Assembly (NCBI GenBank): GCA_965153355.1
Contig: OZ231126.1
Location: 45,384,001-45,448,000, forward strand
Direction of reading: 5' to 3'
DNA: 64,000 bases
DNA from: Flaccisagitta enflata
Lineage: Eukaryota
This document shows, piece by piece, positions 17,941 through 24,088 of the stretch (position 1 is its first letter; the number at the start of each line of letters is the position of its first letter). A model generated the notes under the pieces. The model saw nothing but the letters and a program-made list of their open reading frames with translations. It was not told the origin of the DNA and searched no databases. The position numbers were made by a program, and so were the translations under genes.

Positions 17941-20900
17941 CACAGTGTCACGATACATAGACAAAGACAGTTTTGAGTGCCCAGAGCCGCGACCGGTGCA
18001 GAAGTGTCATTTACCACTTGTGGAACACCAATCACCCGCTGGGAAATTTTTTCGAAGGCAAAAAATTGATTATTCTTTGTTTTTATCCAACTTCTGTTTG
18101 GGCAGTATGTTGGTTGATTTTTTCACGCGTACTGGAGGATATCAGTCATCAATGAATTCTAATTACTTTCTTTTAACCTTGAAACCATCAGAAAATGCAT
18201 AGATTTTGGACTCTCGGCGCTACAGGAGGCTTTTTCTGTCTGTTGGTCTGTTCATCAGTCCATTGATTGGTCCAATATGATGAAGTTGAAAAATGCAAAA
18301 ATGCGTACTTTAGACACCTCGGTTCTCTGTATGTGTGTGTGTGTGTGTGTGTGTGTGTGTGTGTGTGTGTGTGTGTGTGTGTGTGTGTGTGTGTGTGTGT
18401 GTGTGTGTGTGTGTGTGTGTGTGTTTGTAAGTGTGTGTGTGAGTGTGTGTGTGAGTGTGTGTGTGAGTGTGTGTGTGGGGGTATATCTGGACACCTAATT
18501 GCGATGACCTTGTCTAAAAAAAGTTGAAGTCAGTTTTCAAATTTTTGACATATTCGAGAAAAACATGGTTTTCATTTTCTTATGCAAAGTTGAGGAACTC
18601 ATCCAACTGATTTGGGCCTCCAATGAAATTTATGGGGTAAGTAAATTTGATAATTCTTTCATTTGGCGCCAAGCAGAATTCTCTATGACAAATATTTTTC
18701 AAGTAAAGAATTTTTAAAGATTTTTTTACAAAAATTTTTTATGGATTTTTTTCAATTTTTTTGATATTGTATAGGATCAATAAAGGAACGTACTCAAGTT
18801 TGTTTGGGCATGCAAATACAAGAAAACATGTTTGTGAGTATAGCTGCTCATCTGTTAGGGTGTTTTTTAGCATTCTAGCTCATTTAGCTCATTTAGCTCT
18901 GTCTTATTTTTTCTGATTTAAGATGCAATAAATGAATAAATATTTTGATATATATTCATGCAAGAAAATATAAGAAAGCAAGTCAGTGAGCATAGCTGCT
19001 CATCTGTTAGGGTGTTTTTAAGTATTCTAACTTATTTAGCTCATTTAGCTTGGTAGTTTTTTTTAATTTTCAATGGTAAAAACAGATATTTTGATGTGAG
19101 CATGCAAATACAAAAAAAAAAAAAAAACATGTCAGTGAGCATAGCTACTTGTCTGGTTGAGCGATTTTGAGTGTTTAGCTTATCTAGCTCATGTGGCTAA
19201 GTCCTATTTTTCTTTGATTTTCAGTGCAATCTATACATACAATTTTGCTTGATTTGATCAAACAAATAAAAAACATTTCCAAAGAGGGACAACAAAAGCT
19301 TGGTGAAAATTGACTAATGCTTACAACTCTCATCTTTGGGGGATAACCGCCATTACTGGTAACACATAATGTATGCTGGAATGTTTTATCAACTGCTCTC
19401 ACACACTATTGTAGTTAGTTGACTCTCATGTGTTGCGGATTGCTACTGTCATTTTTTGATGACGAATATAGTACCATTCATTTCGTTGAAAGTTAATCTT
19501 ATTGAGCTGTCAGGATATTCAGACCGATTGCTGGAAGGAGAAAAGAGGAAGGATACATGGCTATCCGTGTTGCGTGTAGGTTGGCAGGGGCCGTATTTGA
19601 GGTCACTAGACCATTTGTGTATGAGCAGTGTGGTCAAAGAATAAAAACATGAAAAAAGTGAAACATGGCCAATGAACAAATGGACAGATGGATGGGGATA
19701 GCAGGCTTTAAAGTCCCATATACGTGACCAAAATCTTATGCATGACACACTGACATATTTAGTATATGGGGTTAAGATGGTGAGAGGGGAAGCGATCTTG
19801 TAAGGGAGTATTTTACAGGCTGAGATTTCAGCCTCAATTGGATTTTGAGCCTAGAGGCTGTGATTAAAGCTCTATGACTGGGATTTGGATTGTGACTATG
19901 AGGGAAAGAAGTCCCTGGAGGACTTTTGTTTGACATGCCTTAAAGAGTTGATGAGACTCTTTAGGGTTAAATGAGGACCTACTCATGGCGTGAAGGCTCA
20001 TTGAAGGCTGTTTCAAAGCCTGAGAGGGCTGATTTGAGGCCTGGGTTGGCTGATATCAGGCCAACTAGGCCTGACAGGGCTGATTTGAGATGTTAGTGGG
20101 CTGATTTAAGGTCTGAAAGGGCTGGTCAGGAATTGAGAGGGTTGATATTATTCCTGAGAGGGGCAGGCTGATTTGAGTGCTGAGAGACTCAGGGAGGCTG
20201 TTTTTTAGTCAAAAAGAGCTAATGAAAGGCCTGAGAAAGCAGATTTGGGGCTTTGGGGCAGAATTTCCCAAGGGGATGAAGTCCTATAGAACACAGGGGG
20301 ACTTTTGTATGTTTGTACGTGCGTCCGTCTGTCAGTTTGTTGTTTGTCCCACCCCTTATAGAATCTTTTAGAGCTGAAATCAGGCCTCAAATTGGCTTCT
20401 CAGGCTTGTAATCAGGCCTCTTAGGCTTGTAATCAGGCCTCTCAGGCTTCATATCAGGCCCCATACACCACAAACAGACAAACCAACGCACGGACAAACA
20501 TACAAAAGTTCCCCTGTGTTCTATAGGAATTCATCCCCTTGGGAAACGCTGCCCAAAAGCCCCAAATCTGCTTTCTCAGGCCTTCCATTACGTCTCTTTG
20601 ACCAAAAAACAGCCTTCCTGAGTGTCTCAGCACTCAAATCAGGAATAATATCAACCCTCTCTACTCCTGACCAGCCCTTTCAGACCTCAGATCAGCCCTC
20701 ACAGGCCTTTATCCAGCCCTATCAGACCTTAAATCAGCCCACTAACATCTCAAATCAGCCCTGTCAGGCCTAGTCGGCCTCAAATCAGCCAACCCAGGCC
20801 TCAAATCAGCCCTCTCAGGCTTTGAAAGAGCCTTCAAGTAGCCTTCACGCCATGAGTAGGTCCTCATTCAGCCCTAAAGAGTCATCAACTCTTTAAGGCA

Positions 20901-23900
20901 GTCCTCCAGGGACTTCTTTTCCTCAAAGTCACAATCCAAATCGCAGTCATAAAGCTTTAATCACAGCCTCTAGGCTCAAAATCCAATTCTGACCAAAATC
21001 TCAGCCTGTAAAATACTCCCTTACAGGATCGCTAACCCTCTCACCGTCTTAACCCTATATACTGAATATGTTGTGTGTCATGCACAAGATTTTGGTCATG
21101 TATCCCCATCCATCTGTCTATTTGTCCATTGGCCATGTTTCACTTTTTTTATGTTTTTATTCTTTGGCCACACTGCTCATATACAAATGGTCAAGTGACC
21201 TCAAATATGGCCCCTGCCAACCTACACGCAACTGGGATAGCCATGTATCCTGCCTTTTTTCTCCTTCTAGCAATCAGTCTGAATATTCTGACGGCTCATT
21301 AAGAATAACTTTGAACAAAATGTGTGAGAGCAGTTGATAGAACATTCCGGCGTTCATTATGTGATGTGGTGTTACCAGTAATGGCGCGGTTATCCCCCTG
21401 AGGATAAAAGTTGTGAGCATTAGTCAATTTTCACCAAGCTTTTGTCGTCAGTCTTTGCAAATGTTTTTTATTTGTAAGATCGAATCAAGTATGTATAGAT
21501 TGCACTGAAAATCAGAGAAAAATAGGACTTAGCCAAATCAGCTAGATGAGCTAAAACACTCAAAATCACTCAACCAGACATCTAACTATGCTCACTGATA
21601 TGTTTTTTTTGTATTTGCATGCTCACTTCAAAATATCGGTTTCTACCCATTGAAAATTTAAAAAAACGACCAAGCTAAATTAGCTAGAATACTAACAGAT
21701 AACAGATGAGCAGCTATGCTCACTGACATGCTTCCATATATTTGCTTGTATTAACATATATCAAAATATCCATTCATTAATCACATTTTAAATCAGAAAA
21801 AATAAGACAGAGCTAGATGAGCTAGAATGCTCAAAAACACCCTAACAGACGAGCAGCTATACTCACAACAGGTATTTCGTCGGCGTTCTTATTGCGTTTT
21901 TGTCCCGAATAGGGGAACAACGTCTCAAAACTTCTAGTATGCAACAGTTTCAGAACGACCAAAAAACCATTTATGCATACAACAAAGTCCTTTAGTGGCA
22001 GTTATCTGGGGTTTCAAAATGCAGGAATACTTGCCGTTTTAAAACGGCTTTTTTTGGTTGTATCAAAACTGCATAAAAAGGGCTTTTTGAGAACATGTCT
22101 AAAATATCATTTTTTTCTCACCTCAAGCCAGCTAGTTTTTACCGTTTTGGAACTGGGGAAAAAGTGGCAATGAAATTATGAAATATGAAATAGCCATTTC
22201 TTAGCTTCAATTTCTTGCAGTTTCCGAACTTAAATTTTTTGCAGTATCAAAACTTCAATTTTTTGCAGTATCAAAACTTCATTTTTTTGCAGTTTCAAAA
22301 CTTCAGTTTTTTGCAGTTTCAAAACTGTAAAAAGTAAGCTTTTTGGCACAAGCACACAAATAGATTATCACAACTGCAATTTCATTTAAGTATATGCATT
22401 TTTGCACTTTTAACTCAAGCATAATGGATGAACCGATGGAGGACAGACAGACTAAGCCTCTTTCAGAGTTTTGAGGTTTGGATCTGGGTCTCTTTGGTGG
22501 GATTGGGACCTCAAGGTTTGGGCTTCAAGGCGGGGATCTGGGCCTCCAGGCAAGGATTTGGGCCTTCAGGCTAGAAATTAGGCCTCAAGACTGTAATTTG
22601 AGGAGAAAACTCCCCATGTGTGAAAGCATAGGTCATCAACCCCTTCGGAGCTGCTGCCCAAAAGGATGTCTTTCAGTTTCAGTGTTATGGAAAACCAAGA
22701 GTGGCGTGCGTATTAGCCAGTCAGTGAGGGCTATCGGGGCCCTCTTCCATTTATTTCAGTTTGGGTAAAGTCAGCTAGCATATAACCGTATTTCAATTTT
22801 TAAACGAAATCTTTCTTAGTTTCAATACTTCAATTTTTTGCGTTTTCAAAACGGTAAAAAAGGTGATAAGATAACAAAGATGAATAGATTTTTTCTCTTG
22901 CTGGCCGTTACATTAGCGCTGTTTTCAAGCGTCTTGAAACGCTAAAATCTCGTGGTTTTAAAACTTTAGAATATTAAAGTTTTGATACATCAACTATGCC
23001 TCAATATTCGTTTCAAAAGTTGCGCATTCTTGTTTTGAAACAACAATATAAGATCGTTTTGAAACTGCATAAGAACGCCCATTTCAAAACGGCCTTTTCC
23101 AGCATTTTTGTGACAAAAATTATGAATTTTTGTCACAATAATCCATTTTTTTTCATTTTTGAAACGATTTTTGGCGGTTTATTACGCAATAGTAGAACGC
23201 CACGGAATATCTCACTCACAAACATGTATTCTTGTATTTGCATGCCCAAACAAACTTGAATACATTCCTTTATTGATCCTATGCAATATCATTAAAAATC
23301 GAAAAAAATCAAATTTTTTGTAAAAAAAAATCTTGAAAAATTCTTGAAAAATATTTGTCATAGAGAATTCTGCTTGACGCCAAATGAAAGAATTATCAAA
23401 TTTACTTACCCCATAAATTTCATTGGAGGCCCAAATCAGTTGGATTAGTTCCTCAACTTCCCCATAAGCTGAAGACTGACTTCAACTTTTTAGGTGCGAC
23501 AAAGCACCTCTATAACTGGCTGTGTCCGTTGGTTGGTCGGTCGGTCGGTCTGTCTGTAACGCATTCGTTCGAGGATCCACACGTCGCACCTTATTGGCCT
23601 ACTTGGCCTTGTTTCCTCCTGATAAGGTTACCGCGAGTGGGTGTCCAGGTGTGCCCACACACACATACACACACACACACATACACACACATACACACAC
23701 AGAGAACCGAGGTGTCTGAAGTACGCGTTTTTGCATTTTTCAACTTCAACGTATTGGACCAATCAATGGACTGATGGACAGACCAACAGACACAAAAAGC
23801 CTCCTGTAGCTTCGCGAGTCCAAAATCTATGTATTTTCTGATGGTTTCAAGATCAAAAGAAGGTAATTGGAATTCATTGATGACTGATATCCTCCACTAA

Positions 23901-24088
23901 GCGAGAAAAAATCAACCAACATACTACCCAAACAGAGGTTGGATAAAAACAAGGAATAATCAATTTTTTGCCTTCGAAAAAAATTCTCAGCAGGTGATTG
24001 GTGTTCAACAAGTGGTATATGACACGTTTGCACCGGTCGCGGCTCTGGGCACTCAAAACTGTCTTTGTCTATGTATCGTGACACTGTG
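17941..24088. mobile_element. 6.1-kb palindromic non-autonomous Transib/RAG-like DNA transposon
   Basis: Ends are CACAGTG...CACTGTG with 5-bp TSD aaggc (17936-17940, 24089-24093). The arms are inverted copies up to a centre at ~20345-20465. No transposase ORF. Confidence 0.85.
21869..23213. mobile_element. Non-autonomous hAT-type element nested in the right arm of the foldback
   Basis: 8-bp TSD actcacaa (21861-21868, 23214-23221); imperfect TIR caggtatttcgtcggcgttct / agaacgccacggaatatctc. The left arm shows the empty site at ~18830. Confidence 0.85.

What the first reader, a model, noticed from the sequence alone, without database searches (positions are those of the whole stretch)
17941..24088. 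Foldback transposon whose ends look like V(D)J recombination signals (heptamer + 13-bp spacer + nonamer-like)
Seen: both ends read CACAGTG-tcacgatacatag-ACAAAGACA. That is the exact RSS heptamer, a 13-bp spacer, and 7/9 identity to the RSS nonamer ACAAAAACC, with a perfect 5-bp TSD (aaggc). Known: CAC-heptamer ends and 5-bp TSDs characterise Transib and RAG-like (ProtoRAG/RAGL) transposons, the relatives of RAG1/2. Inference: this genome harbours or harboured a Transib/RAGL transposase that moved a 6-kb non-coding palindrome with symmetric, 12-RSS-like ends. The nonamer resemblance could be chance.
Basis: partly seen in the sequence, partly recalled or inferred. Interest (0 to 1): 0.8.

Follow-up and report, generated by a model that had tools for sequence, protein, structure and literature searches.

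The report
Palindromic non-coding Transib-like DNA transposon
A 6.1-kb non-coding, almost fully palindromic DNA transposon with CACAGTG ends and a 5-bp target duplication, most likely an ordinary passenger of the Transib/RAG-like transposase family; its likeness to a V(D)J recombination signal is not shown to go beyond the heptamer.

Summary
Window 17941-24088 is a 6148-bp element. Both ends read CACAGTG-tcacgatacatag-ACAAAGACA, and it is flanked by a perfect 5-bp duplication (AAGGC). It sits in an 11-bp tandem array, and removing the element plus one AAGGC restores the array's phase exactly. It is a near-complete palindrome: arms of about 2.4 kb at 90-97% identity and a 125-bp loop. No ORF of 90 aa or more matches a protein family. 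One arm carries two later insertions.

CAC ends plus a 5-bp duplication are the published hallmarks of Transib/RAG-like transposons. Exact CACAGTG ends are already published for Transib-N1_SP and TransibN3_AG. I therefore read it as a non-autonomous, foldback-shaped member of that superfamily (confidence 0.6).

The "nonamer" is not supported:
- A 7/9 match at an allowed spacing occurs at 1.4-3.3% of positions in this window.
- It misses essential nonamer position 6.
- Both ends carry the same 13-bp spacing.
- The whole terminal 60 bp is identical between the arms, so the nonamer block does not stand out.

No other copy and no transposase could be fetched: no genome is held and 8 collection scans were empty. 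The family-level tests stay open. Verdict: new member of a known kind, modest interest.

The parts
17936..17940 (.). left copy of the 5-bp target site duplication AAGGC
   Evidence: only n=5 of n=1-9 gives identical flanks
17941..18000 (+). left terminal 60 bp, identical to the right end; probable transposase-binding end. Heptamer CACAGTG at 17941-17947, nonamer-like ACAAAGACA at 17961-17969
   Evidence: 0 mismatches in positions 1-60 against 27 in positions 61-385
17941..20342 (+). left arm of the palindrome: unique part 17941-18327, (TG)n 18328-18477, about 150-bp subrepeats 18756-19226, 21-bp subrepeats 20018-20124
20267..20568 (.). central unit on the symmetry axis (loop 20343-20467). It resembles a small, very abundant hairpin repeat also present at 13104-13534, 17088-17399 and 55613-55944
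20468..24088 (-). right arm of the palindrome, pairing with the left arm at 90-97% in most blocks
   Evidence: 24 paired blocks of 15 bp or more
21869..23213 (+). later nested insertion in the right arm only: 1345-bp non-coding element with ends CAGGTATTTCG.../...CGGAATATCTC and 8-bp duplication ACTCACAA (21861-21868 and 23214-23221). The left arm keeps the empty site
23487..23614 (.). second nested piece in the right arm only: a 128-bp very abundant repeat
   Evidence: (loose ends at 23487 and 23614; bin depth 4.6 million in X1)
24029..24088 (-). right terminal 60 bp, reverse complement of 17941-18000
24089..24093 (.). right copy of the target site duplication AAGGC
24089..24318 (+). target: 11-bp tandem array (AAGGCCAAAAC)n, which begins left of the element at about 17931. 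Taking out the element and one AAGGC puts the array back in phase
   Evidence: unit scores 9,9,11,11,11,10,10 of 11 with one copy; 8,4,4,5,5,5,6,5 with both

Best explanation
The stretch is one insertion of a non-autonomous cut-and-paste DNA transposon of the Transib/RAG-like superfamily that has the shape of a foldback element.

Inferred mechanism. A RAG1-core-like DDE transposase, encoded elsewhere in the genome, binds the two identical ends of about 60 bp. It nicks next to the CAC and releases the element by the nick-hairpin route. It then inserts the element with a 5-bp stagger, which on repair gives the AAGGC duplication.

Inferred origin of the palindrome. One half of an ancestral element was copied in reverse around a small hairpin repeat that now lies exactly on the symmetry axis. 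The palindrome then moved as a unit. This requires a transposase that accepts two identical ends, with no 12/23-type asymmetry.

Later history. This copy picked up an 8-bp-duplication element and a 128-bp repeat in one arm, and its microsatellites expanded.

What is shown: the ends, the duplication, the restored target, the palindrome, the nested insertions and the lack of coding capacity. What is inferred: the superfamily, the enzyme and the origin of the palindrome.
For: 1) Ends and duplication.
2) Restored target: with one AAGGC the 11-bp units score 9-11 of 11. With both copies kept they score 4-8.
3) Published hallmarks. [quoted passage not shown] CAC is invariant in RSS, Transib and RAGL ends (Martin 2020 passages).
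4) The same CACAGTG end is printed for TransibN3_AG and Transib-N1_SP, and CACTGTG closes TransibN1_AG (Figure S4).
5) The ends look constrained. There are 0 mismatches in the first 60 bp, although that stretch holds four CpGs, against 27 in the next 325 bp. The script gives P=0.014 for 59 bp at 7.0% divergence. My arithmetic from its counts, (1-27/325)^60, gives about 0.0055.
6) Both ends abut the duplication. The palindrome therefore existed before this insertion and moved as such (inference).
7) Symmetric ends agree with the statement that most Transib families have symmetric TIRs with little or no nonamer likeness (Natl Sci Rev 2019 passage).
8) There are no subterminal repeat motifs of the CACTA/hAT/P kind in the 387-bp unique end. 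One search found one 13-nt pair and no inverted pair.
9) A stretch around element position 71 has summed contig depth 19,427 in run X1. The 100%-identical unique flank contigs have 155-169, and position 274 has 434. This hints at many shorter relatives. The tool warns that depth is not copy number.
Against: The evidence rests on one insertion. No second copy, no other duplication and no transposase could be seen.

Beyond the heptamer the end does not match known Transib ends. The 7 consensus ends in Figure S4 have G at position 8, and 6 of 7 have G at position 9. Here these positions read TC. The Transib consensus A-rich block at positions 31-39 reads TTTTGAGTG here.

The target is not clearly GC-rich: 35-bp site 0.51, 15-bp site 0.33, window 0.40.

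From I cannot tell whether the high-depth stretch reaches the terminus. The right-end bin mean allows at most about 80 bp at that depth.

A second long-inverted-repeat element in the window (59168-63666) has CAC ends but only a 4-bp flank match. CAC-ended families other than Transib may therefore live in this genome.
Confidence: 0.6

Rival explanations
1. It is a non-autonomous member of another CAC-ended cut-and-paste group (CACTA/Mirage/Chapaev type) whose transposase here made, once or regularly, a 5-bp duplication.
For: CAC ends are shared by that group (recalled, not from a call). The same window holds a second palindromic non-coding element, 59168-63666, with ends CACTGCTCTGG and a 4-bp flank match TCAG. 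Beyond the heptamer, the end of the present element does not match the printed Transib ends.
Against: The duplication is exactly 5 bp, and no shorter length fits. Duplications of 2-4 bp for that group are recalled, not tested. There are no subterminal repeat motifs. The heptamer is identical to that of two published Transib families.
Confidence: 0.15
2. The ends are a true bipartite signal (heptamer, 13-bp spacer, nonamer) read by a RAGL-A-like transposase with a nonamer-binding domain.
For: The heptamer is exact. The nonamer match is 7/9 at a spacing within 12+/-1, on both ends. A CAAAG block lies at the same positions 22-26 in Transib-N1_SP (my comparison with the sequence printed).
Against: The background rate of such a match is 1.4-2.0% at spacers 11-13 and 2.4-3.3% with 22-24 added, and it was noticed after the fact. 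It mismatches at nonamer position 6, called essential. Both ends have the same spacing, so there is no 12/23 pair. Positions 8-20 and 30-60 are as well kept between the arms as 21-29. The A-rich block next to the heptamer (TR2) described for P. flava RAGL-A ends is absent.
Confidence: 0.06
3. It is a hAT-type element of a subgroup with 5-bp duplications.
For: hAT subgroups with 5-bp duplications exist (recalled). A hAT-like element with an 8-bp duplication is nested in the right arm, so hAT-type activity occurred in this genome.
Against: The third base of hAT ends is 'always G, as opposed to C' in 22 families (Figure S7 legend). Here it is C.
Confidence: 0.04
4. It is not a mobile unit. It is a palindrome made in place, or an assembly artefact, and the flank match is chance.
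For: Long-read assemblies can hold artificial palindromes. The flanks lie in a tandem repeat, where short matches are frequent.
Against: The arms differ by 3-10%, and each has private indels and nested insertions. The 5-bp repeat is out of phase with the 11-bp array, and its removal restores the phase. Contigs of 4 runs from 2 studies cover all 30 bins of the stretch.
Confidence: 0.03

Closest known systems
Non-autonomous Transib families with CACAGTG ends: Transib-N1_SP (sea urchin) and TransibN3_AG (mosquito). Kapitonov & Jurka 2005, Figure S4 (passages seen)
   Same: Exact CACAGTG...CACTGTG ends, 5-bp duplications, no coding capacity, symmetric ends.
   Different: Those are about 0.5-2 kb (coordinate spans) with short inverted ends. 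This one is 6.1 kb and palindromic over nearly its whole length. Positions 8-9 read TC here and GG there. The CCAAAA block near positions 31-36 is absent here.
RAGL/ProtoRAG transposons and their non-autonomous derivatives (Martin et al. 2020; Martin et al. 2023 preprint)
   Same: CAC-heptamer ends and 5-bp duplications. Non-autonomous TIR pairs have been reported.
   Different: The protostome RAGL consensus CACTWMCAAACKTYKBB has AAA at positions 8-10, and this element has TCA. No RAG1L or RAG2L sequence is present in the element or the window.
12-RSS of jawed vertebrates
   Same: Heptamer identical. A-rich 9-mer with 7/9 identity after a 13-bp spacer.
   Different: Nonamer position 6 is G. 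Both ends have the same spacing. There is no evidence that the 9-mer is a separately conserved block.
Foldback-shaped elements of other superfamilies (Drosophila FB, Galileo of the P superfamily); recalled, not from a call
   Same: Long inverted arms built partly of tandem subrepeats, no coding capacity, and the capacity to fold into a hairpin.
   Different: Their duplications are 7-9 bp (recalled) and their ends are not CAC-heptamers. Foldback shape is an architecture, not a family.

Membership tests
Transib superfamily | 5-bp target site duplication | tested here: met
   AAGGC on both sides. Only n=5 fits, and the phase of the 11-bp target array is restored. One insertion only.
Transib superfamily | ends 5'-CAC...GTG-3' with an RSS-like heptamer | tested here: met
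   CACAGTG / CACTGTG, identical to the TransibN3_AG and Transib-N1_SP ends.
Transib superfamily | second conserved A-rich block about 23 bp from the heptamer (consensus AAAAAAATC at 31-39) | tested here: not met
   Positions 31-39 read TTTTGAGTG, scoring 1/9 against the RSS nonamer. Consensus taken. Several published families also deviate.
Transib superfamily | RAG1-core-like DDE transposase in an autonomous element with the same ends | not testable with these tools
   No genome is held. 54 window ORFs were scanned against Pfam with no RAG1/Transib hit (8, 46). I had no Transib protein from any tool to search with.
Transib superfamily | preference for GC-rich targets | tested here: inconclusive
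   The 35-bp site has GC 0.51, the 15-bp site 0.33, the window 0.40. One site only.
RAGL (ProtoRAG-type, family B) | A-rich block (TR2, AAA at positions 8-10) next to the heptamer | tested here: not met
   Positions 8-10 read TCA. Consensus taken.
RAGL (ProtoRAG-type) | convergent RAG1L-RAG2L genes between the ends, or such a partner elsewhere | not testable with these tools
   None in the element. The genome is not available.
RSS-type bipartite signal | nonamer with A at positions 5 and 6, at 12+/-1 or 23+/-1 bp | tested here: not met
   ACAAAGACA has position 5 = A and position 6 = G. The spacing of 13 is allowed. The 7/9 match has a background rate of 1.4-3.3%.
RSS-type bipartite signal | asymmetric 12/23 pair of ends | tested here: not met
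   The two ends are identical over 60 bp.
hAT superfamily | third base of the end is G; 8-bp duplication | tested here: not met
   The third base is C and the duplication is 5 bp. Rule taken from the Figure S7 legend.
CACTA/Mirage/Chapaev group | CAC ends with 2-4-bp duplication and subterminal repeats (recalled) | tested here: not met
   CAC ends are present, but the duplication is 5 bp and there are no subterminal motif arrays.
Foldback (FB/MULE-type) | long inverted arms of subrepeats with about 9-bp duplication (recalled) | tested here: not met
   The architecture is met. The duplication length is not.

The most novel reading that the evidence does not exclude
The identical ends are genuine symmetric 12/13-RSS-like signals. 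Heptamer and 9-mer would be read separately by a RAGL-A-like transposase with a nonamer-binding domain, in a marine planktonic animal outside the groups where such elements are known. That would place an RSS-type bipartite end, mobilising foldback passengers, far from vertebrates.
Probability: 0.05. Interest if true: 0.8.

Novelty: new member of a known kind. Interest (0 to 1): 0.3.

Why it matters
If the attribution holds, this marine organism carries, or carried, a Transib/RAG-like transposase. The organism is found in marine metagenome runs and its lineage was not settled. The case also shows that this enzyme family can move a 6-kb perfect-ended palindrome. That is direct natural evidence that its ends need not be asymmetric. 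It also adds Transib to the superfamilies that produce foldback-shaped passengers. It does not bear on the origin of the RSS nonamer, because the nonamer likeness is within chance. For annotation, the element gives a clean example of a dated, nested history: target array, then palindromic element, then two later insertions.

Tried and rejected
1) Whole genome: none is held.

2) Other copies in public collections. I used exact-pattern scans with three anchors: element positions 30-49, 1-20, and a 24-mer around position 80. They covered metagenome contigs, viral contigs and genome contigs. All 8 scans gave 0 hits, most likely because the organism is not in these collections.

3) Other copies in the window: a sensitive blastn of the terminal 160 bp found only the two ends.

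4) Earlier notes of this scan: nothing by place, sequence, relatives or words.

5) Reads. The runs are contigs only. The tables shown list no joint from 17940 to 24094 (empty site), but 2358 joints and 7887 loose ends were not shown. This says nothing either way. A part without a listed bridge is not evidence.

6) Hidden coding remnant. The longest internal ORF (19452-19850, minus strand, 133 aa) was searched against 1.84 billion representatives. It gave 154 hits at E<=0.001, nearly all short proteins matching residues of about 54-104. Of the 7 I scanned, the 5 short ones have no Pfam family, and the 2 long WD40/STAND proteins plus one long odd one are unrelated. I read these as translations of a widespread DNA repeat (19538-19690, also at window 49695-49868), not a transposase.

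7) Organism. The glycosyltransferase exon gave its best named hits at 38-39% (a copepod, a brachiopod, rotifers). The LINE RT gave only unnamed ENA metagenome proteins, up to 87%. The Atlas look-up gave bacterial clusters only. Rfam and tRNA scans were empty. The lineage is left open.

8) Structure or complex prediction: not used, because nothing in the element codes.

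
Full report
OBSERVATION

The element runs from 17941 to 24088 (6148 bp). Its left end reads CACAGTG TCACGATACATAG ACAAAGACA, and the right end is the exact reverse complement. With up to 3 mismatches the 29-mer occurs only at these two places in the 64-kb window, against 0.00 expected from shuffles. The five bases before the element (17936-17940) and after it (24089-24093) are both AAGGC. Of flank lengths 1 to 9, only 5 gives identical flanks. 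The heptamer alone is not enriched: 3 in the window against 4.88 expected. Among 243 CAC...GTG inverted pairs in the window (14 nt, up to 3 mismatches, 60-15000 bp apart), exactly 1 has identical 5-bp flanks, and it is this one.

IS THE DUPLICATION REAL OR A BY-PRODUCT OF THE REPEAT IT SITS IN?

The right flank is an 11-bp tandem array, (AAGGCCAAAAC)n, at 24089-24318. The ten bases left of the element belong to the same array. If the element and one AAGGC are taken out, the successive 11-bp units score 9, 9, 11, 11, 11, 10 and 10 of 11 against the unit. If both AAGGC copies are kept, the register is lost and the scores are 8, 4, 4, 5, 5, 5, 6 and 5. The duplication is therefore out of phase with the array and is what a staggered 5-bp cut would leave.

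Contigs of a very abundant repeat part from the window at 17930 in all four runs laid (loose ends in 777, 648, 269 and 169 contigs). So the target was the array that follows that repeat.

ANATOMY

The element is a near-complete palindrome. The paired blocks are:
- 17941-18372 with 24088-23657 (93%);
- 18584-18831 with 23462-23222 (93-97%);
- 18832-19403 with 21868-21323 (89-95% in the longer blocks);
- 19479-20342 with 21322-20468 (90-96% in the longer blocks).

This leaves a 125-bp loop at 20343-20467. The arms hold a 387-bp unique outer part, a (TG)n run, about 150-bp subrepeats and 21-bp subrepeats.

The unit on the axis, about 20267-20568, resembles a small hairpin repeat that also occurs at 13104-13534, 17088-17399 and 55613-55944.

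Much of the interior consists of sequence that is extremely abundant in the source organism. Bin depths reach 10^5 to 4.6x10^6, against 155-169 for the 100%-identical unique flank contigs of run X1. The tool warns that depth is not a copy number.

The 10 ORFs of 90 aa or more lying wholly or mostly inside the element have no real Pfam family. The only line is a sub-threshold Zip match over the TG run. No RAG1- or Transib-like match appears among the 54 window ORFs scanned (8, 46).

The longest internal ORF found 154 weak relatives among 1.84 billion representatives, almost all short proteins. The 5 short ones that I scanned have no family. I read these as translated copies of a DNA repeat.

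LATER HISTORY

The right arm alone carries a 1345-bp insert (21869-23213). Its ends are CAGGTATTTCG.../...CGGAATATCTC and it has a perfect 8-bp duplication, ACTCACAA. The left arm keeps the undisturbed site ...ctatactcacaaacatg.... By its 8-bp duplication and CAG-type ends it is hAT-like.

The right arm also alone carries a 128-bp piece (23487-23614) of a very abundant repeat.

These private insertions, and the 3-10% arm divergence, show that the palindrome is real and old, not an assembly artefact.

THE ENDS LOOK CONSTRAINED

In the 385 non-microsatellite positions of the outer arms there are 27 mismatches. None falls in the first 60 bp, although that stretch holds four CpGs. The script gives P=0.014 for 59 identical positions at 7.0% divergence. 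Using the rate of the remaining 325 positions, my arithmetic gives about 0.0055.

This fits a lineage that kept transposing while its arms drifted, with a working end of up to about 60 bp. It also means that the two ends of this single copy cannot tell the "nonamer" from its neighbours. Positions 8-20 and 30-60 are just as invariant as 21-29.

Because both ends abut the duplication, the palindrome must have existed before this insertion and moved as a unit (inference).

WHAT FAMILY?

Passages of Kapitonov & Jurka 2005 state the following:
- Transib elements have 5-bp duplications, and Transib was then the only eukaryotic DNA transposon superfamily with that length.
- The 38-bp consensus end is CACAATG, a 23-bp spacer, then AAAAAAATC.
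- Only heptamer positions 1-3 and nonamer positions 5-6 are essential in RSSs.
- hAT ends always have G as third base.

Their Figure S4 (supplementary text, passages seen) prints these consensus ends:
- TransibN3_AG: CACAGTGGGCAGC...
- Transib-N1_SP: CACAGTGGGCCAGG..., with GC-rich 5-bp duplications
- TransibN1_AG: ends in ...CCCACTGTG

The exact RSS heptamer at a Transib end is therefore already in print.

Martin et al. 2020 (passages) give the protostome RAGL end as CACTWMCAAACKTYKBB, with a conserved AAA at positions 8-10, invariably 5-bp duplications, and a few non-autonomous pairs. The 2023 preprint (passages) describes the heptamer-TR2-spacer-nonamer ends of P. flava RAGL-A and the nick-hairpin mechanism with a 5-bp duplication. 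The 2019 Natl Sci Rev paper (passage) says that most Transib families have symmetric ends with little or no nonamer likeness.

Against this background the element meets two hallmarks: CAC-heptamer ends and a 5-bp duplication. It fails the secondary regularities:
- Positions 8-9 read TC, not GG or GT as in the 7 printed Transib ends.
- Positions 8-10 read TCA, not AAA as in RAGL-B.
- Positions 31-39 read TTTTGAGTG, not an A-rich block.

It has no subterminal motif arrays of the CACTA, hAT or P kind. I therefore file it as a probable non-autonomous Transib/RAG-like element (0.6). A CAC-ended element of another group is the main rival (0.15).

THE NONAMER

ACAAAGACA scores 7/9 at a 13-bp spacing. 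In the window's own sequence a score of 7/9 or more occurs at 0.5-0.7% of positions for one spacing, at 1.4-2.0% for spacings 11-13, and at 2.4-3.3% for 11-13 or 22-24. The mismatch at position 6 hits one of the two essential nonamer positions. Both ends have the same spacing, so there is no 12/23 pair.

One small lead remains. Transib-N1_SP has CAAAG at the same positions 22-26 (my comparison), but a shared 5-mer at one offset is weak evidence. I put the bipartite-signal reading at about 0.05-0.06.

COPY NUMBER HINTS

At element position 71 (window 18011) the summed contig depth in X1 is 19,427 (11 contigs, 19,243 of it reading A as in the right arm). At positions 274-277 it is 434, and on unique flank contigs it is 155-169. 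Runs X2 to X4 show the same drop where they cover: 23,653 against 445 in X2, and 457 against 24 in X4.

The long palindrome itself therefore seems to be present once or a few times, while a stretch of at most about 80 bp near the end is far more abundant. Whether that stretch reaches the terminus, which would mean a family of short relatives, cannot be told from the bins.

WHAT COULD NOT BE DONE

No genome is held. Eight exact-pattern scans of the metagenome, viral and prokaryote collections found nothing, and the scan's earlier notes hold nothing.

The organism occurs in runs labelled marine or seawater metagenome, which make up 20 of the 22 listed rows (X3-X22); 18 of those hold part of the stretch. 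Its only host gene in the window is a family-2 glycosyltransferase with a QxRRW motif. That gene is 38-39% identical to copepod, brachiopod and rotifer proteins. The lineage is not settled.

LITERATURE CHECK FOR A PALINDROMIC TRANSIB

A full-text search for 'Transib' with 'foldback' found 8 papers, of which 7 were listed. I saw only the listing. No title or abstract start concerns a foldback-shaped Transib. A search for CACAGTG with 'terminal inverted repeats' and 'target site duplication' found 3 papers, all on RAG, ProtoRAG or Transib. Repbase and Dfam entries could not be consulted, so I make no claim of a first.

VERDICT

This is a new member of a known kind: a non-coding, foldback-shaped passenger with Transib-type ends. 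The V(D)J-signal likeness is limited to a heptamer that is already known from Transib ends. Interest 0.3.

Noticed in passing
window 59168-63666: A second non-coding, largely palindromic element of 4499 bp. Arms 59168-60128 / 62728-63666 are 89% alike, and 60004-60532 / 61676-62204 are 93% alike. Its ends are CACTGCTCTGG...CCAGAGCAGTG, with only a 4-bp flank match, TCAG. The ends are unrelated to those of the first element beyond CAC. It may belong to a different CAC-ended family.
   Followed up: partly
window 21869-23213: A 1345-bp non-coding element nested in the right arm, with a perfect 8-bp duplication ACTCACAA and CAG-type imperfect inverted ends (hAT-like). The left arm preserves the empty site. 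It contains a 24-bp tandem array (22205-22326) and a copy of the abundant repeat seen in the left flank (22600-22657, similar to 17873-17930).
   Followed up: partly
window 13104-13534, 17088-17399, 20292-20518, 55613-55944: A small hairpin-shaped repeat built around 21-bp subrepeats (GCCCTCTCAGGCCTGAAATCT type). It is extremely abundant in the source runs. One copy lies exactly on the symmetry axis of the large palindrome.
   Followed up: partly
window 19538-19690 (also 49695-49868): A repeat whose translation matches about 150 short unannotated proteins (45-65% identity) among 1.84 billion representatives. This suggests a DNA repeat that is widespread in marine metagenome assemblies.
   Followed up: partly
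window 1031-5359: A LINE-type reverse transcriptase (3556-5359, RVT_1) is interrupted or adjoined by a Penelope-like piece. That piece has a weak GIY-YIG match (2464-3363, 21.8 bits against a cut-off of 22.6). It is bracketed by 210-bp inverted repeats that are 99.5% alike (1719-1928 / 3399-3608). RT relatives up to 87% identical occur only in unnamed ENA metagenome proteins.
   Followed up: partly
window 47771-48544 and 52359-53420, minus strand: Exons of a family-2 glycosyltransferase with a QxRRW-type motif. It is the only evident host gene in the window. The best named relatives are 38-39% identical (copepod, brachiopod, rotifers).
   Followed up: partly
window 9547-9830 / 10381-10662 and 10668-11798: Two inverted arrays of a 10-bp unit (AAAATGACTT / AAGTCATTTT) form another palindrome, followed by a 1.1-kb array of TAATTATAGG. 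Next to it, 8708-9527 is about 80% like the arm segment 18517-19405 of the element but lacks its CACAGTG end.
   Followed up: no
window 39529-41297 and 43209-44025: A 46/138-bp satellite of about 13 long units, and a 23-bp array of 35 copies. The latter yields long open frames of proline/histidine-rich repeats on the minus strand, probably not coding.
   Followed up: no
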